Positions 2,849 to 51,560 of a stretch of DNA of 64,000 bases are shown one piece after another (within the stretch, counting starts at the first letter, position 1; each line of letters starts with the position of its first letter). A model generated the notes under the pieces. It searched no databases and was not told where the DNA came from. It worked only from the letters and a program-made list of their open reading frames with translations. The translations under genes were made by a program, and so were the position numbers. This stretch comes from a virus (lineage: Duplodnaviria > Heunggongvirae > Uroviricota > Caudoviricetes). Location of the stretch: positions 1-64,000 of the IMG/VR virus record IMGVR_UViG_2913167280_000003; one strand, given 5' to 3'.

Positions 2849-5800
2849 CCTCGCCAGCTGCGTGCTGCGCCTTGATGTAGTTCTGAAGGTCGATAGTAGC
2901 CTGTTCTTTCTGGCGAGCGCGTTGCGCTGCTTTCGCCTTATCCATTTGAACCTGCATCATAGCCAAACGTTCGCCGTCATCCTTAGCGGTATACATCTGC
3001 ATTTCGATCATGTCGTTGGCGTCGGCGTTCTCCATTTCTGACTTATCTGAACGGAGAATATCGGATATCCAACCAGCTTTACGTTTCAGTGTCTTCAGGC
3101 GGTATTCATCGAAAGAACCCTTGCCGCAGTAGTAGTGAACGCGAACGCTTGCACGGTTGGAGCCAACACGGGCGCCGCGACCGTTACGCTGTGCAATACT
3201 GGCTGGAGTCCACGGCAACGTCAGGTGGTGGATATCCGTCGTTCCTCGATGCAGGTTGATACCCACCTCTGCCTTTTTGTTGCAGATGATGATCGGGGTC
3301 CGGCCCTCCTGGAAGTCGGCAGCAATCTTTTCCAGCCCGCCCAGCGACATTTCATTTTGCTGCGCGATATAGGCGTCATACAGAGCCATTTGCTCGTTGT
3401 ATTTCGCTATCTGTGCATCTGTTGGTTCATCCGGTAGCTCTTTCGGAGGTTTAACCGCTTTCAGTTTCTTACCGGTTTTACCTGCCTCTGCAACCGTCTG
3501 AGCATTCAGGATCCCCACCTTTGAAGGTTCAAGGTTAAGAGCATTGCAGATAATGCGCTTGAGCTTCTGGTGCTGCGTTTTTTCATCGGTGAAGATGATT
3601 TGCTTACCTTCCGGGAAAAACTCCTTCAGCGTGGCAATCAGCTTCGCGTATTTGGGCGTAACGGGGTGAGTTACGGTCTGTTCGTCAATGCCAAACCTGG
3701 CCAGGCGCTTATTCACTTCCTGCTCGAACGCTTCCGGAACCTGCAACTGAATAAACTCGCCCTTATCTATCAGGGAGTATTGCGATTGTTGCGTGATTGA
3801 ATCATCACTGTCGTCGTCTTCGCTGGTGGCTTGTTTAGGCAAACTGTCCGCCAGCTGCTGCACCGCATCGGCGTACTCCGGCAGGAAACGATAGGTGATC
3901 CGGCGATAGTACAGGTCCATGTCAGTACATACGCGGTCCATATCCCTGATTATTGAGAAGATCGGACGGGCTTTCTCGTGCTCAATCACGCCGTCTTCAT
4001 TGACCGAGGTCGTTACGCCATTGTTGGCTTTGGCCGCCGCTTCCACCTGCTGACGCAATTCTTCATACGCCGCCAGTTGTTCTTCAGTAAGTGGTGCATC
4101 CTGCTGGTGCTCGTCCAGCTCCGGGATCTCCACGGTATCCTTAACGTCTTCCGCCGTTTTAAGCGTTGTCCACCGATGGAATATACCGCGCAGCGCATCA
4201 AGGTTTTCAAAGCCCACCAGCGCCATTTTTTCTTCAACTTCACCGCTTATTTTCTGTACCGCTTCCAGCCTGGTCTTGCCGAAGAATTTAACGAAGTCAT
4301 CAGGACCGTAGATCCCCATCTTCTGCCAGTATTCCTTCGGCAGAACATGAAAAAGCATGTTGTATGCATCGATCGGGGTGTTAACGACTGGCGTTGCAGT
4401 CAGGAGAACCGGTCCGCGCCCGCCATTCTTTTTCATCAGGTACGCGTTTTTGATTGCCATATCTCTCGCCGATTGCGCTACCGCGCTGGTGGGCAGATAG
4501 GCCAACTGTGACGCTTCGCGACCATTTTTATAGCTATTGCGGTAGTTGTGGCCTTCGTCGGCGATCACGCTGTCGAAGCCCATATCCTCAAAGTACGGAT
4601 ACTTCTCTGCTTTTTCGGTGCCGGTATCTGAATACTCCGACAATATCCGGCGGCGCGCCGCCTCTTTGCGATGGGAATCGGAATCCATTGCGCTGGCTAC
4701 GCGCCCGGCAGCAACGAAGTCATAAAGCATATCCTGTGCATGCTCATCTACGGTGTCATCGCGTAGCGGAATGCGGGCGTATTGTTCTTTGGTAAACACG
4801 ACTGCACGGTAATTTGAGTGCAGGATCGCGTTCATCCGCGCCGTGATAGTGGCTTCATCTGCCAGCTTAAGGGCATCGCGCATAAGTGGAGTGCCATCAG
4901 CATCAAGTACAGGTTTACCGTTCTCATCGAGCACCGGCGCCTGGCGAATCTGATCGCCGTCCATCAGTACATCCAGACCGACGAACAGGTAGTTACTGAA
5001 GGCTTCTTCACTCAGGAACTCTTTTGCTTCGTAATACCAGTTTTCCAGCACTGATTTAGGCACTACATAAGCAGTACGGGTGGAGCGACCGTTCTCATAG
5101 TTGAACGCCTCAAGCGCCAGCGCGGTCGTGGTTTTACCTATTCCAGTACCGAATCCCATAATGCCGCGCCCATCTTCGGACAGTCGGCGCACCTCGCTAT
5201 TCTGGTAATCAAATGGCTGTCGCTTACCGCTTAATCCCTTCAACCCAAGCGGATCGCCAGAATGTTCATACGGGATATTGCTATTGAAAACAGTGTTGTA
5301 TTTGGCAACCAGCTCATCGTAGCGATCATGCGTCTTGAGCCACTTATTGAACTGCTCCTCAAGCAGAGCCATCTGCTCGCGGTACCCGTTCGCCGTCGTG
5401 CTATCTTTGCCACCGATACGCGCACCATTGAGATACTTTTCCAGCTGTGCCGGGAACCCGGTCGCGTTTTCTCCTGATTTACGGTCCCACTCGTAGCGGA
5501 TCTCGCCTGTTTCTTTATCCTTGCGCTGGACGACACCGTATCGGTGCCCGACGAACAGACCATCACCACCGTGATAGGTGTCAGAAACCATTTCGTCGCC
5601 TTCCAGCTGCACTGACTGCACATAGCGCAGATCCGGATAGCCGTTTTCCTGCAAAAATTCCAGAATGACGGAACGGTCGAACCAACGGCTATTGAGCTTA
5701 AACCGGATATTCTCTGCTGGCGTCTTGATGCGCTTCTCTTCGATCGCTGCCAGCTGATTAAGGACGTTGTTCTTTACTGGACCGTCGGGGAGTGTGGCAA

Positions 5801-35407: not shown

Positions 35408-35609
35408 GTTAAATTTGCAATAAAAAAATCAATCGCCGGGCTTTAAGCATCCATCGTTTTTGGCTTGTTGATATAACTTACTTAGCCCAGAAAGAGGGAA
35501 TGTGGCAATTTTTTCATTATCAACATAAGCATCAATCACATTAGCATTTGAATCTGCTGCATCCTGCCAAAAGGCATACCACCAAGAATCTCCAACCATT
35601 GACCCAAGA

Positions 35610-35799: not shown

Positions 35800-36984
35800 T
35801 CAAGCTTTAAGAGGCTTTGTGTATGTTCGTGTAATCCATCCAGTAATAAACTCGTCCCCTGATTTAACCTGCACGAAAAGCCATTGGCGATCTTTTTTAT
35901 CTAAAATAGCAACAATTGTATTTTTACCAATGCACTCTATCACTTCACTATTTAAAGAAGGACTGACATGTAATCTTACATTATCACCTGTTATAGCTCT
36001 AAAATTATTAAGATCCTCCCACTGAATATCTTTATTTTCTTGTGTTAGCTTTTGCTTAGATATTGGCTTATCCTCATTTAGGGATAGAATATATGATTCC
36101 ATCCCGTAAATTTGCGATAATGTTTTTTCTTTCGCATAATCAGTTATAGCGCCAAGAAATACTTGACACAAAATCCACAGAAGAAAAGTCTGAACAGGAG
36201 AAGGAAGCGCCTTAAATGAATCAATAAACGTCGAACTAGATTTATTTAATCCTTTGTCTTGAGCATCACTTTCAGTGTGTGATGTTTCAATGGCACCTTC
36301 GATATAAGCCTGTGCAATTGTTGAAAGACCTTGCTCCATTATTTGATGAAATGAAGCCTTTTGTGCTTGAGTATATTGATTTAATAATTCTTTTATTTCA
36401 TTGTTTAAATCTATCTTGTGAGTTACATTTTTCCGCAATTCATTAAGCATTGCTTGCATGTTATTCAAGCCAGCTTGCTTATTAAGCATCTCGAACTGGT
36501 TTCGTAACGGCATAGCTATTTCGGCCTGTTTCCTTAGCATTTGAATGTGTTTATTTGCATCATGAGTGGAAAAAGCCTGAGCCTGTTTCTGTAAAATATC
36601 AATATGTTTACGAAACTCGTTGCCTATTCCTGCCAGTTTCGGCATATTCTCAAACTGTTTTCGAATAGAATCACTAACTATGGATTGCAAATTAAATCTT
36701 GCTATTTGTTCTTGAGCTAGCTGTCCTATTCTTAACTGTTTTTGCAAGTTTGCCATATGTTCTTTATACGATGGAATGATTGCGTTTTTTTGCAGTTCCG
36801 CCAACTGTCTAACCAAATTATTAGAAGCATAATCTGATTTTAATAAATCACTTACCGATTTATATTCGGGCATTTTGATTTTATTTAAATCATCACGCCA
36901 AGTAATATTTGAATCTTTATTATAAAGATCGCTTACTGAGCCAAGAGCAAGTTTTTTAATGTCCTTCACTTTATTCACCGTCAT
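35800..36984 (-). CDS. Hypothetical protein: helical N-terminal region, one predicted TM helix, C-terminal SH3b-like domain
   Basis: 394-aa ORF, AT-rich; hydrophobic segment VQTFLLWILCQVFLGAITDY; C-terminal region (NVRLHVSPSLNSEVIECIGKNTIVAILDKKDRQWLFVQVKSGDEFITGWITRTY) resembles bacterial SH3 folds. Start overlaps the upstream gene by 14 nt. Confidence 0.5.
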   Translation of the reverse strand: MTVNKVKDIKKLALGSVSDLYNKDSNITWRDDLNKIKMPEYKSVSDLLKSDYASNNLVRQLAELQKNAIIPSYKEHMANLQKQLRIGQLAQEQIARFNLQSIVSDSIRKQFENMPKLAGIGNEFRKHIDILQKQAQAFSTHDANKHIQMLRKQAEIAMPLRNQFEMLNKQAGLNNMQAMLNELRKNVTHKIDLNNEIKELLNQYTQAQKASFHQIMEQGLSTIAQAYIEGAIETSHTESDAQDKGLNKSSSTFIDSFKALPSPVQTFLLWILCQVFLGAITDYAKEKTLSQIYGMESYILSLNEDKPISKQKLTQENKDIQWEDLNNFRAITGDNVRLHVSPSLNSEVIECIGKNTIVAILDKKDRQWLFVQVKSGDEFITGWITRTYTKPLKA

Positions 36985-37435
36985 CTTGCTTTAAACACCC
37001 ATCATTTTTAGCTTCCTTGTAAATACTTGAAATGCCATCAAGAGAGAATGATGTAATTCGACGCGATCCGATATATACATCCATGTTTTTTTCTTTTGTG
37101 GCTGACGCTGACTTCCAAAAAGAATACCATTCCCTACGATTAGGAGAAGTGTTTTGCGTGCCAATATTAAAACTATCCGAACCAACAATTAAAGTAATTA
37201 CATCTGCTTTACGAGAAATTGTGTCGCGTGTAGAAAAATCGGCATTCTCTTTTCCTCCGCTTACATACAAATTTCTTCCAGCGATATGGTCTTCAGAACC
37301 ATCCCTTGCACCAGCATCACAAGAAAAATTAATTGTATAGCCATCCTCATGACATGCTCCGGCAAAGCGCCTCATTTGACGCTCCTGTTGACCATCTTGT
37401 CTTAACTGGAATTTAAATGCTTGTAGTCGTTTCAT
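36971..37435 (-). CDS. Hypothetical soluble protein, first gene of a two-gene operon
   Basis: 154-aa ORF with no TM segment or signal peptide; translationally coupled to the 394-aa gene. Confidence 0.5.
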   Translation of the reverse strand: MKRLQAFKFQLRQDGQQERQMRRFAGACHEDGYTINFSCDAGARDGSEDHIAGRNLYVSGGKENADFSTRDTISRKADVITLIVGSDSFNIGTQNTSPNRREWYSFWKSASATKEKNMDVYIGSRRITSFSLDGISSIYKEAKNDGCLKQDDGE

Positions 37436-37597
37436 CCCACTATTTTAAACAAAAACAGTTAGGTGGAGAACCGCGCCTTATATCCCCACCCTGAAGGACG
37501 GGGTTTTACGGCGCACCGGATAACTCATTTAGGGTACATATTTTCGCCTTTAAAAAAAAGAGGTTATTAGATCCATTTGTGTATTTATTAAACAGAT

Positions 37598-37614
37598 AAT
37601 GCTCTAATAAATTT
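37598..37614 (+). promoter_or_regulatory. C1 operator-like site upstream of the immI operon (Op51-like)
   Basis: AATGCTCTAATAAATTT, 16/17 match to the C1 operator consensus, about 320 bp upstream of icd. Confidence 0.6.
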
Positions 37615-37789
37615 GTATTTTTAAGTCGCGAATGCTATCTTTTCGCATCATATTGACCTTTTAATCGTTCAGGCTTATAGTTCCGCCGTCGTAGCAAATT
37701 CTGCGACCAGGTTTGACAGCCTGAAAACTTACGCGGACAACCGCACATTTCCGATATTGCGGTATTTTTGTGTCCGTAAAACCACGTTA

Positions 37790-37870
37790 CGCCCGAATTA
37801 TGGTGGGGCGTGATGGGGAGGCTTCGGCCTGCTGGTTTCGTAAGTGCCAGTCTGTCAACCCTGTCACGTC
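37790..37870 (+). ncRNA. c4: c4-like antisense RNA region (approximate boundaries)
   Basis: ORF-free region between the operator and icd. Contains CTGTCAACC (37852-37860) and CTGTCACG (37861-37868), complementary to the repeated TTTGACAGC motifs at 37711-37720 and 37881-37889. Confidence 0.4.
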
Positions 37871-37927
37871 CTGCCACCTGTTTGACAGCGGGTCGCAGGT
37901 TGTTTATCAACTTACGAGGCCGTAACT

Positions 37928-38149
37928 ATGGTTAATGCCAATCCTTGCGCACGCCAAGAATTCATCTGGCGTTTCTATTCCTGTAAAAAACACCACTATC
38001 ACTTCGTTATCGCAGCAACAGAAGACGAAGCACGCTCTCAATTGCCTGATGGCCCCTGCATTTTTACTGCCCGTTTTTCGACTAACTCGCGCAATTCACT
38101 TAGTTACTGGAACCTCCCCTTCTCTGCCGACGTTCAGGGGGTTTTATGA
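37928..38149 (+). CDS. icd: Icd-like small protein, translationally coupled to ant
   Basis: 73-aa ORF whose stop overlaps the ant start by 4 nt, directly downstream of the c4-like region. Confidence 0.55.
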   Translation: MVNANPCARQEFIWRFYSCKKHHYHFVIAATEDEARSQLPDGPCIFTARFSTNSRNSLSYWNLPFSADVQGVL

Positions 38150-39183
38150 AAAAACCTCTCGTCACCCGGAATGAAATAGCCGAAGCGGTCGCCCTGCATA
38201 CTGCCTGTATGCCGACACGGGAGATCCCCGGCGCAATTGCCAACTACTTCATGATAACCAGGCGTTTTTATACCCGAACAGATAAGGCTGTGATCAACAG
38301 GCTACTGATAGCCGAGATCAGGGATTATTTGATTGAACAAGGACGTCTACGTTACGCAACAGTGGCAGCAGAAATGAGAAAGGAGGCACATAGAATGACC
38401 GGTAATAATTTGAATGTTGAAAAACCAGCACCTGTTACGTCAGCTACGCCAGCACCAGCCGTGAATATTATCCCCAACACCGGAGACACAATCGACAGCC
38501 TGACACTGTTAAAGATGGTCAATGAAGCGCGTAAGTTATGTGGGGAACCAGAGGTTCGGAACAACAAATTCATCGAAAAAATACTCGATGAGCTTGATGG
38601 TGAGCACTACACAAAAAGTGTAGTGGAAAAAATGAACAAAACATCAATGCTTGTCATAACCATGACCTACAAACAAGCCCTGCGAGTCGCCGCGCGCGAA
38701 TCAAAAGCTGTCCGCCGTTCGCTGATCGACAAACTGGAAGAATTGCAGCAGGCAAACTCCCCTACCCCATCGATCCCCCAAACATTACCAGAAGCCCTAC
38801 GCCTGGCTGCCGAGTTGGCAGAACAGAAAATGCAGCTGGAACAACAGCTGGTGGCCGCAGCCCCTAAAGTCGATTTTGCCGACCGGGTATCAGTGGCTAA
38901 TGGAATCCTGATCGGGAACTTTGCAAAGGTCGTTGGACTGAAGCAAAACGCCCTTTTCTCATGGTTGCGCCAGAACGGCATTCTCATGGCTTTTGGTGCG
39001 CGCAAAAACGTACCGCGCCAACAGTACATCAACGCCGGGTATTTCACGGTGAAAGAAGTGGTGCTGGATGATGAAAATGGCTACCAGATACGGCTGACGC
39101 CCCAATTAACGGGTAAAGGCCAGCAGTGGTTAACTCGTAAGCTACTTGCTACTGGTTTGTTAAAACCAGTAGCAATAGGTTAA
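38146..39183 (+). CDS. ant: Antirepressor (Ant1; Ant2 probably from an internal in-frame start)
   Basis: 345-aa ORF. Its C-terminal ~150 aa (PQTLPEALRLAAELAEQKMQLEQQL ... GKGQQWLTRKLLATGLL) are closely related to the KilA C-terminus. Confidence 0.7.
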   Translation: MKKPLVTRNEIAEAVALHTACMPTREIPGAIANYFMITRRFYTRTDKAVINRLLIAEIRDYLIEQGRLRYATVAAEMRKEAHRMTGNNLNVEKPAPVTSATPAPAVNIIPNTGDTIDSLTLLKMVNEARKLCGEPEVRNNKFIEKILDELDGEHYTKSVVEKMNKTSMLVITMTYKQALRVAARESKAVRRSLIDKLEELQQANSPTPSIPQTLPEALRLAAELAEQKMQLEQQLVAAAPKVDFADRVSVANGILIGNFAKVVGLKQNALFSWLRQNGILMAFGARKNVPRQQYINAGYFTVKEVVLDDENGYQIRLTPQLTGKGQQWLTRKLLATGLLKPVAIG

Positions 39184-41317: not shown

Positions 41318-41499
41318 TACAATCGCTGCGGGTGCTTGAGGCTATCTGCTTCAGGCACTACCCGACAAGCAGATAGAAGAAAGCCCCAGATAACATTACG
41401 CGTCCTGCAAGACGCTTAACATTAATCTGAGGCCATATCTATGCTTAGCATACGTAGATTAGCCCTCTCCCCTTTTTAGGAGCAAGGAATTTTTTACTG

Positions 41500-42132
41500 C
41501 TATGCCGCCTTTCCAATTATGGATTCAGCGACCAGAACAACCCCATGCTTACTTCTATCTGGGTGTTCACTCCATATCTCGGATTCAGGAATACTTACCC
41601 CGTCATAGCAAACACGTTCGCCGTCAAACGGGTAATACTGAGCGGCATCGGTGTCGAGGATAAACACTTTTAGCTCGGAAGAGCGACGGGCGATGTGTTG
41701 CCAAAGAGCTTTTCCACCTTCGTATTGCTCATTATCACTGAGCAAAACAACACCAGCTTTTGAGGCTACGGTTTCGTAAACAAAAGTAGCTAAACCGACA
41801 TCCCGGACGGTTCCATCAACCACGATACCTTCAATCTGGGCAACATCGCTATCCTCCCAGAACTTCCTTACAAGTACGCCTTCAAGCTGCGGGCGACGTT
41901 GAAGTTCAAGAGTAGCGACAACCTTATGGCGCATATCACCATCGATAACAGAAGGCGCAGCCTCTATTACAGCTGCAAATGGGGTTTTGGAATCCCATAT
42001 AACCTGGTAAAGCACACCCTGGATGGTAACTCCGTCCAGGATCGAAAATCGACGAGCGACAGTACCCGGGGAGTACGACATTGGAATCACAGCCATTTTA
42101 GAGTCCCCCTTTAACAGTACAGGCACAAACAT
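41500..42132 (-). CDS. Hypothetical protein (PmgF-like position)
   Basis: 210-aa ORF with its own AT-rich upstream region. Confidence 0.35.
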   Translation of the reverse strand: MFVPVLLKGDSKMAVIPMSYSPGTVARRFSILDGVTIQGVLYQVIWDSKTPFAAVIEAAPSVIDGDMRHKVVATLELQRRPQLEGVLVRKFWEDSDVAQIEGIVVDGTVRDVGLATFVYETVASKAGVVLLSDNEQYEGGKALWQHIARRSSELKVFILDTDAAQYYPFDGERVCYDGVSIPESEIWSEHPDRSKHGVVLVAESIIGKAA

Positions 42133-50130: not shown

Positions 50131-50416
50131 GATGTGTGCTGGAGGGATGATGAAGGCCCAGAATATGCGATAGAGGGAAGTCGCATTAAATTATGTGTTG
50201 TGGAGGGACCGCAGGTATCAAATATGTGCGCTGAAGGGAAAGACAGAAGATTAGATGTGCGCTGGAGGGAAAACCGGATGGTTAGATGTGTGCTGGAGGG
50301 AAAGTCTGGGCAAACTGCGGGGCGCAGCCCTCCAGCGCACACCAAAAACAGGAAAATGGACAGGCATTCCCGGCAGCGCACATTTTTCAAATGCAGCTGC
50401 CCTCCAGCACACACTT
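50131..50416. repeat. incA: incA iteron array (RepA-binding 19-bp repeats, both orientations)
   Basis: At least eight copies or variants of GATGTGTGCTGGAGGGAAA (for example 50131-50149, 50254-50272, 50285-50303; inverted at 50326-50343 and 50398-50416). Confidence 0.85.
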
Positions 50417-51289: not shown

Positions 51290-51560
51290 ATTATGTGGAT
51301 AGTTTTTATCAGTGATGATAACTACCCAGGCTTTCCCGTCAGCACACATCCTATATCCCGCCAGCACACATTAGCAACCCGTCAGCACACATTTTTTTCC
51401 CTCCAGCGCACATCATTTTCCCTCCAGCACACATCGCGAAAGGCTTCTAAGCCAGACGGGACGCGGCCTACAACGATCAGGGATCTATATGGATCTAATT
51501 GGGATCTGTATGGACCTGATTATTGGATCTATCCAGTGGATAATGTGGATAAGTGAAAAA
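51290..51560. other. oriR: Plasmid origin oriR: DnaA boxes, incC iterons, GATC-rich region
   Basis: Five same-orientation iterons (51333-51435), five GATC sites within 55 bp (51474-51529), DnaA-box matches TGTGGATAA (51544-51552) and TGTGGATAG (51294-51302). Confidence 0.8.

What the first reader, a model, noticed from the sequence alone, without database searches (positions are those of the whole stretch)
37700..37930. c4-type antisense arrangement: repeated TTTGACAGC target motifs flanking complementary CTGTCA elements
TTTGACAGC occurs at 37711-37720 (with CTGCGACC at 37701-37708) and again at 37881-37889 (with the inverted GGTCGCAG at 37891-37898), the latter about 40 nt upstream of the icd start. 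Between them, CTGTCAACC and CTGTCACG (37852-37868) are complementary to the TGACAG cores. This matches the logic of P1 c4 RNA pairing with sites on its own transcript to block icd/ant translation; the exact RNA boundaries are not determined.
Basis: partly seen in the sequence, partly recalled or inferred. Interest (0 to 1): 0.35.

Follow-up and report, generated by a model that had tools for sequence, protein, structure and literature searches.

The report
P1-type c4 antisense RNA switch

Summary
The motifs exist as described, with one off-by-one start. They belong to the known P1/P7 immI operon. Rfam places C4 antisense RNA (RF01695, 69.6 bits) at 37796-37881 and its a1b1 target motif (RF03163, 55.4 bits) at 37675-37727. 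The region is 94.5% identical to P1.

TTGACAG at 37713 and 37882 are P1's annotated a1 and a2. CTGTCAA at 37852 is a', unpaired in the folded 77-nt RNA (37802-37878).

- It missed the second pairing set: b' UCGUAAGU (37838-45, hairpin loop), b1 (37727-33) and b2 (37910-17). b2 covers the icd Shine-Dalgarno.
- The second "CTGTCACG" lies in the C4 stem and is not an antisense element.
- The inverted repeat GGTCGCAG/CTGCGACC is not conserved.

Across 50 distinct relatives, a'/a2 with b'/b2 and a'/a1 with b'/b1 pair in 100% of cells, with eight compensatory positions. Two a alleles and seven b alleles occur in 12 combinations.

The window combines the P1 a type with the D6/SJ46 b type, and its C4 is identical to phage D6's. 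The system is already known and of low interest. The combinatorial specificity and the strict co-evolution of a1/b1 are a modest side result.

The parts
37598..37614 (+). C1 repressor operator Oc4 (Op51), AATGCTCTAATAAATTT
   Evidence: Identical to the P1 operator annotated at NC_005856 48140-48156. Mapped through alignment A1.
37612..37641 (+). Promoter P2c4 (former P51a), overlapping the operator: -35 at 37612-37618, -10 TATCTT at 37636-37641
   Evidence: Position transferred from the P1 annotation. These columns are invariant between the window and P1 in A1. Not found by the generic promoter scan.
37653..37681 (+). Promoter P1c4 (former P51b): TTGACC, 17-nt spacer, TATAGT
   Evidence: The only sigma-70-like site found in 37450-38200, with 10 of 12 matches. 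Coincides with the P1 annotation.
37675..37727 (+). c4-a1b1 leader motif. Hairpin 1 pairs GUCGUAG (37688-94) with CUGCGAC (37701-07). Hairpin 2 pairs CAGG with CCUG and presents a1 in its loop.
   Evidence: Rfam RF03163, 55.4 bits against a gathering score of 46.7, E = 2.8e-11. The MFE fold gives the same two hairpins. Hairpin 1 shows compensatory changes in L106 and L064.
37713..37719 (+). a1 target site, TTGACAG
   Evidence: Aligns to the P1 misc_binding feature 'a1'. Pairs with a' in 50 of 50 distinct relatives, with 2 compensatory positions.
   Evidence: Aligns to P1 'b1' GTTAGTGC. Pairs with b' in 50 of 50 relatives, with 6 compensatory positions.
37802..37878 (+). C4 antisense RNA, 77 nt (boundaries by homology to P1 c4)
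   Evidence: Rfam RF01695, 69.6 bits against a gathering score of 45, E = 1.7e-11, at 37796-37881. The P1 misc_RNA c4 maps to these coordinates. MFE -42.8 kcal/mol, z = -5.2. Identical to the phage D6 C4.
37838..37845 (+). b' antisense element UCGUAAGU, in the loop of the second C4 hairpin
   Evidence: Unpaired loop in the MFE fold. Complementary to b1 and b2. Cognate duplex -8.4 kcal/mol against -3.6 or weaker for the other alleles.
37852..37858 (+). a' antisense element CUGUCAA, in the single-stranded junction of C4
   Evidence: Unpaired in the MFE fold. Complementary to a1 and a2, with covariation.
37882..37888 (+). a2 target site, TTGACAG
   Evidence: Aligns to the P1 misc_binding feature 'a2'. 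50 of 50 relatives paired.
   Evidence: Aligns to P1 'b2' GTTAGTGA. 50 of 50 relatives paired, with 6 compensatory positions.
37928..38149 (+). icd (73 aa, cell-division inhibitor); its stop overlaps the ant1 start (ATGA)
   Evidence: 96% identical to P1 Icd. ORF listed.
38146..39183 (+). ant1 (345 aa), with ant2 starting in frame at 38395; the antirepressor whose synthesis C4 blocks
   Evidence: 94% identical to P1 Ant1. Pfam ANT/KilAC domain, E = 1.5e-30. The ant2 ATG at 38395 follows AAGGAGG and matches the offset annotated in P1.

Best explanation
This is the immI immunity operon of a P1-like phage-plasmid.

Transcription starts at a C1-controlled promoter and a constitutive promoter (37612-37681). 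The single RNA carries, in order, a structured leader with sites a1 and b1, the 77-nt C4 RNA, sites a2 and b2, and then icd and ant1/ant2.

C4 is cut out of this precursor. In P1 the 5' end is made by RNase P. C4 folds into a long stem with two hairpins. This leaves b' (UCGUAAGU) in a hairpin loop and a' (CUGUCAA) in a single-stranded junction.

C4 then pairs through a' and b' with a2 and b2 on further copies of the same transcript. The b'/b2 duplex covers the icd Shine-Dalgarno, so icd is not translated. ant1 is translationally coupled to icd (overlapping ATGA), so the antirepressor is not made either. C1 stays active and lysogeny is kept.

The upstream a1/b1 sites bind the same two elements. 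They most likely compete with a2/b2 or mask C4 in cis, which would tune the switch.

Shown here: the sequence elements, the RNA fold, complementarity, conservation, covariation and gene context. Inferred from work on P1/P7: processing, translational repression, coupling and the outcome for immunity.

This copy has the P1 a type and the D6/SJ46 b type. It is therefore predicted not to be fully cross-immune at immI with P1, P7 or SJ46, but to be equivalent to phage D6.
For: - Two Rfam matches exceed their gathering scores: C4 at 69.6 bits and c4-a1b1 at 55.4 bits.
- The 601 nt around the site are 94.5% identical to P1 and 93.8% to P7 immI over 93% of the query.
- P1's annotated Oc4, P2c4, P1c4, a1, b1, c4, a2, b2, icd and ant1/2 all map colinearly onto the window.
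- The promoter scan finds TTGACC-17-TATAGT at the P1c4 position.
- C4 folds at -42.8 kcal/mol (z = -5.2) with a' and b' unpaired.
- In 50 distinct relatives, a'/a2 plus b'/b2 pair in 750 of 750 cells and a'/a1 plus b'/b1 in 700 of 700. Each set has 8 positions changed on both sides (172 cells). No shuffle of 500 reached these values, and slid controls pair in only 27-48% of cells.
- All 118 complete copies carry exact complements at all four targets.
- Cognate b duplexes are -8.0 to -8.9 kcal/mol, against -5.4 or weaker for non-cognate ones. Cognate a duplexes are about -7.3, against -2.8 or weaker.
- Icd is 96% and Ant1 94% identical to P1's.
- Literature: C4 represses Ant synthesis (PMC8546580, PMC8198154, PMC12197685). 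The C4 precursor is an RNase P substrate (cited in PMC2190699). The roles of a1/b1 and a2/b2 are summarised in the supplement of PMC2864571.
Against: - Nothing here shows that the RNA is made, processed or active in this element. Everything functional is transferred from P1/P7.
- ARAGORN sees no tRNA-like gene, so the 'tRNA-like' substrate character is not detectable with that tool.
- The 3' tail after the stem reads ACC-U, not a canonical ACCA.
- The relatives were collected with an exact 25-nt C4 core. They are close kin, so stem covariation within C4 itself is barely tested here; that rests on Rfam.
- The role of a1/b1 has not been settled experimentally, to my knowledge.
Confidence: 0.93

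Rival explanations
1. The operon is an inactive remnant. The sequence is c4-like, but the module no longer regulates anything in this element.
For: No expression data are available. P1-like plasmids often have rearranged immI regions (PMC6906374). The genes upstream differ from those of P1 and P7.
Against: Every part is intact and colinear with P1: the operator, both promoters, a1/b1, C4, a2/b2, and full-length icd, ant1/ant2, kilA and repL. The b allele differs from P1's at all three sites in a mutually compensating way, which implies continued selection.
Confidence: 0.04
2. The repeated TTGACAG motifs are -35 promoter hexamers (TTGACA) or protein-binding sites, not RNA pairing sites.
For: TTGACA is the sigma-70 -35 consensus. 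At a2 a weak -10-like TATCAA lies 17 nt downstream (read).
Against: In about half the relatives both sites read TTAGCAG, which is not a -35 consensus. The C4 junction changes in step to CUGCUAA, so the constraint is on base-pairing with a'. The generic scan reports no promoter at either site. P1 and P7 have no -10-like hexamer at that spacing.
Confidence: 0.02
3. c4 encodes a small protein repressor (the historical view). The candidates would be the 51-aa GTG ORF at 37770-37925 or the 41-aa ORF at 37810-37935.
For: ORFs overlap the region. An old P1 record, X15639, annotates c4 as a CDS.
Against: The variable positions are confined to the 7-8 nt blocks that pair with flanking sites and change in step with them. 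That is an RNA-RNA signature, not a coding one. The segment scores as a structured RNA. [quoted passage not shown]
Confidence: 0.005
4. The repeats and complements are a chance coincidence.
For: A 9-nt repeat within 200 nt is common in this window, with 96 such pairs. The single-motif counts are within chance.
Against: Two Rfam matches exceed their gathering scores, pairing covaries perfectly in 50 relatives, and the gene order is colinear with P1.
Confidence: 0.005

Closest known systems
Bacteriophage P1 immI operon: c4 antisense RNA with a1/b1 and a2/b2 targets, icd, ant1/ant2 (NC_005856 48140-49731; Rfam RF01695 and RF03163)
   Same: Same order and spacing of operator, two promoters, a1, b1, 77-nt C4, a2, b2, icd and ant1/2. 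The a allele (TTGACAG / CUGUCAA) and the C4 stems and UUCG hairpin are identical. Icd is 96% and Ant1 94% identical.
   Different: The b allele differs at all three sites: the window has b' UCGUAAGU, b1 ACUUACG and b2 ACUUACGA, against P1's UCACUAAC, GUUAGUG and GUUAGUGA. The predicted window-C4/P1-b2 duplex is about -0.5 kcal/mol, against -9.5 for the cognate pair. Upstream, P1's simABC genes are replaced by an SH3-domain ORF and a 154-aa ORF.
Bacteriophage P7 immI / c4 (AF503408 51057-51133), the classical heteroimmune partner of P1
   Same: Same architecture and the same C4 scaffold.
   Different: P7 differs from the window in both sets: a is TTAGCAG / CUGCUAA and b is GAUUGUG / UCACAAUC. 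The summed predicted duplex energy of the window C4 on the P7 leader is -4.3 kcal/mol, against -17.3 on its own leader.
Phage D6 (MF356679) and Salmonella phage SJ46 (KU760857) c4 modules
   Same: The D6 C4 is identical to the window's over all 77 nt, including a' and b'. SJ46 shares the b allele and shows the highest local identity in the phage collection, 97.3% over 93% of the query.
   Different: In D6, c4-icd is followed by a Roi-like putative antirepressor rather than P1-type Ant1, and lies next to repL in a different arrangement. SJ46 has the P7-type a allele.

Membership tests
C4 antisense RNA (Rfam RF01695) | Sequence and structure score at or above the curated gathering threshold | tested here: met
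   69.6 bits against a gathering score of 45, E = 1.7e-11, full-length model 1-87 at 37796-37881 on the + strand.
C4 antisense RNA (Rfam RF01695) | Fold with a long outer stem enclosing a tetraloop hairpin and a second hairpin, followed by a single-stranded junction | tested here: met
   The MFE and centroid structures are identical at -42.8 kcal/mol, z = -5.2, with a UUCG tetraloop, a 9-nt second loop and a 7-nt junction. This agrees with the Rfam consensus structure line.
P1/P7 immI c4 system | Two unpaired elements a' and b' complementary to a2 and b2 downstream, with b2 overlapping the icd ribosome-binding site | tested here: met
   a' 37852-58 pairs with a2 37882-88 (7 bp). b' 37838-45 pairs with b2 37910-17 (8 bp). 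The SD GAGG is at 37916-19. 100% of 750 cells are paired, with 8 covarying positions.
P1/P7 immI c4 system | A second target pair a1/b1 in the leader upstream of c4 (Rfam RF03163 c4-a1b1) | tested here: met
   RF03163 scores 55.4 bits against 46.7. a1 37713-19 and b1 37727-33 pair with a' and b' in 100% of 700 cells.
P1/P7 immI c4 system | Operon context: C1 operator and promoters upstream, then icd and overlapping ant1/ant2 downstream on the same strand | tested here: met
   Colinear with the P1 annotation. Promoter found. Icd 96% and Ant1 94% identical. ANT domain present.
P1/P7 immI c4 system | A 77-nt RNA processed from the operon transcript, with its 5' end made by RNase P | not testable with these tools
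   Boundaries 37802-37878 are inferred by alignment to the P1 misc_RNA. The scaffold sequence is identical to P1's outside b'. The literature basis is Hartmann et al. 1995, cited in PMC2190699. ARAGORN finds no tRNA-like gene.
P1/P7 immI c4 system | C4 represses icd/ant expression and determines immI immunity specificity | not testable with these tools
   Only predicted duplex energies are available: cognate -17.3 kcal/mol, against -8.3 on the P1 leader, -4.3 on P7 and -12.9 on SJ46.

The most novel reading that the evidence does not exclude
Across P1-like phage-plasmids the c4 switch may act as a two-part combinatorial 'immunity barcode'. At least 2-3 a alleles and 7 b alleles assort almost freely. 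Of the 14 combinations of the two common a and seven b alleles, 12 were seen. All three copies of each element (antisense, upstream target, downstream target) always change together.

Co-resident modules on one contig always carry different b alleles (3 of 3 contigs).

The upstream a1/b1 sites are kept as strictly as the functional a2/b2 sites. That would mean a1/b1 pairing is itself essential, not optional.

The order on the DNA is a1 b1 ... b' a' a2 ... b2, so any single crossover yields a self-mismatched operon. The origin of new self-consistent types is therefore unexplained.

I found no description of this in the searchable library. The most likely place for one, Gilcrease & Casjens 2018, could not be read.
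Probability: 0.3. Interest if true: 0.4.

Novelty: already known. Interest (0 to 1): 0.15.

Why it matters
For the window itself the result is annotation. It fixes the immI operon of a P1-like phage-plasmid to the base, gives the C4 boundaries and all six pairing elements, and assigns the element to an immI specificity type (P1 a, D6/SJ46 b). That type predicts which other P1-like elements it can or cannot repress at the antirepressor level.

More generally, the survey gives a very clean natural example of three-way RNA-RNA co-evolution: 100% pairing with 8 compensatory positions. It suggests that the long-unresolved a1/b1 sites are under the same selection as the proven a2/b2 sites. It also shows that P1-like elements carry many more immI specificities than the textbook P1/P7 pair. 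This bears on co-residence and exclusion among phage-plasmids that spread resistance genes.

Tried and rejected
It pairs in 82.7% of cells, equal to the shuffle mean of 82.3%, with no real covariation. It is the 3' strand of the C4 stem, where the U/C difference is a G-U to G-C change.
The centre pair is broken in 32 of 50 relatives and covariation equals the shuffles. CTGCGACC belongs to the local hairpin instead.
- A tRNA-like gene call. ARAGORN found none.
- An exact-match scan of species-representative genomes for the window's b'+a' allele found no hit, so the host range of this allele could not be read from that collection.
- I looked for papers describing multiple c4 specificity types and found none in the held library. 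The key primary papers are not held: Citron & Schuster 1992, Hartmann 1995, Lobocka 2004 and Gilcrease & Casjens 2018. Statements about them rest on citations in other papers, on the P1 GenBank annotation and on my own knowledge.
- The promoter (-35) reading of TTGACAG was rejected on covariation.
- One apparent exception to self-consistency is L044, whose b' does not match its b2. It sits on a contig that ends at the same point as a second c4 contig from the same genome, so it is probably an assembly chimera.

Full report
**Observation.**
- CTGCGACC is at 37701-37708 and GGTCGCAG at 37891-37898.
- CTGTCAACC is at 37852-37860 and CTGTCACG at 37861-37868.
- The icd ATG is at 37928.

Taken alone, these repeats are not unusual. 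TTTGACAGC is expected 0.84 times per window, and 18 of 100 shuffles gave two or more copies. CTGCGACC is within chance too. The window holds 96 pairs of exact 9-15 nt repeats within 200 nt of each other. The case therefore rests on what the motifs pair with and on comparison with relatives.

**What it is.** A scan of the whole window against Rfam at gathering thresholds gave three matches. Two lie here:
- C4 antisense RNA (RF01695): 69.6 bits against a threshold of 45, at 37796-37881 on the + strand.
- The 'a1, b1 targets of C4' motif (RF03163): 55.4 bits against 46.7, at 37675-37727 on the + strand.

The 601 nt around the site are 94.5% identical to phage P1. They are 93-97% identical, over 93% of the query, to P7, SJ46 and other P1-like phages.

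The P1 RefSeq record annotates this operon feature by feature: the C1 operator Oc4, promoters P2c4 and P1c4, a1, b1, the 77-nt c4 RNA, a2, b2, icd and ant1/ant2. I mapped these through a three-way alignment and checked them on the P1 sequence itself. They give the following window coordinates:

| Feature | Window coordinates |
|---|---|
| Oc4 | 37598-37614 |
| P1c4, TTGACC-17-TATAGT (also the only promoter-like site in the generic scan) | 37653-37681 |
| a1, TTGACAG | 37713-37719 |
| b1 | 37727-37733 |
| C4 | 37802-37878 |
| a2, TTGACAG | 37882-37888 |
| b2, overlapping the icd Shine-Dalgarno GAGG (37916-19) | 37910-37917 |
| icd | 37928-38149 |
| ant1, overlapping the icd stop (ATGA) | 38146-39183 |
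| ant2, in-frame start | 38395 |

Icd is 96% and Ant1 94% identical to the P1 proteins. Ant1 has the KilAC/ANT domain. kilA and repL follow, as in P1.

**RNA anatomy.** The 77-nt segment folds with MFE equal to centroid at -42.8 kcal/mol, z = -5.2. The fold is a 17-bp outer stem, a UUCG-capped hairpin, a second hairpin and a 7-nt single-stranded junction. The loop of the second hairpin holds UCGUAAGU (b', 37838-45). The junction is CUGUCAA (a', 37852-58). A 3' ACC tail remains unpaired. This matches the Rfam consensus structure.

The leader folds into the two hairpins of the a1b1 motif, with a1 in the loop of the second. That agrees with the description in the supplement of Weinberg et al. 2010 (PMC2864571).

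The TTGACAG sites are indeed a1 and a2, and CTGTCAA is a'. Three points need correcting.
- The b set was missed. b2, not a2, is the site that occludes the ribosome-binding site.
- The second 'CTGTCACG' is the 3' strand of the outer stem. Tested as a partner of a2 across relatives, it pairs no better than shuffled columns (82.7% against 82.3%). Nine P1-a-type copies read CCGTCACG there instead.
- CTGCGACC is the 3' arm of leader hairpin 1. Its inverted match GGTCGCAG reads GGTAGCAG in P1, P7 and most relatives. The centre pair is broken in 32 of 50 and there is no covariation.

**Comparative test.** I scanned IMG/VR with an invariant 25-nt C4 core. Together with P1, P7, SJ46, D6 and the window, this gave 124 copies and 50 distinct 250-nt segments. 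I wrote the intermolecular pairings as helices on this alignment.
- a'/a2 plus b'/b2: standard pairs in 750 of 750 cells. Eight positions changed on both sides (172 cells). No shuffle of 500 reached this, and slid controls paired in only 28-48% of cells.
- a'/a1 plus b'/b1: the same result, 700 of 700 cells.
- All 118 copies with complete flanks carry exact complements at all four targets.

Among the 124 copies there are two a alleles:
- TTGACAG / CUGUCAA, as in P1.
- TTAGCAG / CUGCUAA, as in P7.

A 125th, more divergent copy, L064, has a third a allele and its own b allele, still complementary.

There are seven b alleles. They have cores GUUAGUG (P1), GAUUGUG (P7), ACUUACG (window, D6 and SJ46), ACGAAUG, GUACAUG, ACUUGUG and GUUCAAG. 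These occur in 12 of the 14 possible a-by-b combinations.

Predicted duplexes are -8.0 to -8.9 kcal/mol for cognate b pairs, against -5.4 or weaker for non-cognate pairs. For a pairs they are about -7.3, against -2.8 or weaker.

The window combines the P1 a allele with the ACUUACG b allele. That combination occurs in 6 of 124 copies. Its 77-nt C4 is identical to that of phage D6. The summed predicted pairing of the window's C4 is:

| Leader | Summed duplex energy (kcal/mol) |
|---|---|
| Window's own | -17.3 |
| SJ46 | -12.9 |
| P1 | -8.3 |
| P7 | -4.3 |

**Mechanism.** Shown here: all sequence parts, the fold, the exposure of a' and b', complementarity to both target pairs, overlap of b2 with the icd Shine-Dalgarno, the icd/ant1 overlap, and selection on every pairing.

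Taken from established work on P1/P7:
- C4 is a processed 77-base RNA (Citron & Schuster 1990 and 1992, cited in PMC8198154 and PMC8546580).
- Its precursor is an RNase P substrate (Hartmann et al. 1995, cited in PMC2190699).
- It blocks Ant synthesis by binding around the ribosome-binding site, and it underlies P1/P7 heteroimmunity (PMC12197685; PMC6906374).
- From my own knowledge: ant expression depends on icd translation, and loss of icd translation leads to premature transcription termination.

The role of a1/b1 is a proposal only: competition with a2/b2 for C4 (PMC2864571 supplement). An MFE fold of the whole 260-nt leader does pair a1/b1 with a'/b' in cis. That makes both cis-masking and competition physically plausible.

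**Rivals.**
- A -35 promoter reading of TTGACA fails, because half the relatives have TTAGCA with a matching change in a'.
- A protein-coding c4 fails on the pattern of variation.
- Chance fails on the Rfam scores and the covariation.
- A decayed, non-functional module cannot be excluded without expression data. It is unlikely, because every part is intact and the b allele is self-consistent at three sites.

**Comparison and novelty.** The feature meets every membership criterion I could test for Rfam C4, for c4-a1b1 and for the P1/P7 immI operon. The only untested criteria are the biochemical ones. It is already known.

The side result is the survey: many specificity alleles, nearly free assortment of a and b, orthogonal alleles in the three contigs that carry two modules, and a1/b1 kept as strictly as a2/b2. 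I could not find this described in the searchable library. Several key papers are not held, so I rate its novelty as uncertain.

One puzzle remains. The order on the DNA is a1 b1 ... b' a' a2 ... b2. Changing only a or only b therefore needs two separate patches, and any single crossover gives a self-mismatched operon. The single mismatched copy found, L044, looks like an assembly chimera of two co-resident elements.

**Verdict.** The kind of system is already known. Interest is 0.15.

Noticed in passing
window 41330-41504 (+): Rfam sok/CssrC antitoxin RNA (RF01794) matches at 87 bits, above its gathering score of 59. It lies just after repL, but no Hok-like ORF is visible immediately downstream.
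   Followed up: partly
window 50131-50292 and 51335-51427: Two clusters of repeated GATGTGTGCTGGAGGGAAA-like motifs appeared in the short-repeat count. From memory they look like the 19-bp RepA iterons of the P1 plasmid replicon (incC/incA).
   Followed up: no
window 35800-37435 (-): A 394-aa ORF with a weak C-terminal SH3_3 match and a 154-aa ORF sit where P1 has simABC and P7 has upf50.0/50.5. The cargo upstream of immI is therefore a third variant, shared with many E. coli P1-like plasmids. By eye, the C-terminus of the 154-aa ORF resembles the 56-aa ORF at 35429-35599.
   Followed up: partly
L019/L053, L016/L078 and L056/L065 (pairs of loci from one IMG/VR contig each): Three viral contigs carry two c4 modules each. 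In all three the two copies have different b alleles, and in two of them different a alleles as well. This is what mutually orthogonal switches would look like.
   Followed up: partly
L044 (reverse strand, C4 core at 4782-4806): This is the only self-mismatched copy among 124. Its b' is CAUUCGU and its b1 matches, but its b2 is the P1-type GUUAGUGA. The contig ends at the same point as L076 from the same genome, so it is probably an assembly chimera of two co-resident elements. Otherwise it is a natural single-crossover recombinant.
   Followed up: partly
window 37440-38160 against complete E. coli genomes: DNA similar to this c4/icd/ant region is found in 3248 of 5426 complete E. coli genomes. 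There are 4902 places on chromosomes against 774 on plasmids. Related sequence is therefore far more common in integrated prophages than in P1-like plasmids.
   Followed up: no
window 37802-37878 against L004 (phage D6): The 77-nt C4 is identical to phage D6's. However, D6 follows icd with a Roi-like putative antirepressor rather than P1-type Ant1. The same RNA specificity is thus coupled to different antirepressor cargo.
   Followed up: partly
window 37686-37945 (+): The minimum-free-energy fold of the whole leader (-102.8 kcal/mol, z = -5.4) pairs a1 with a' and b1 with b' in cis, at the expense of part of the C4 outer stem. This hints at alternative precursor conformations.
   Followed up: no
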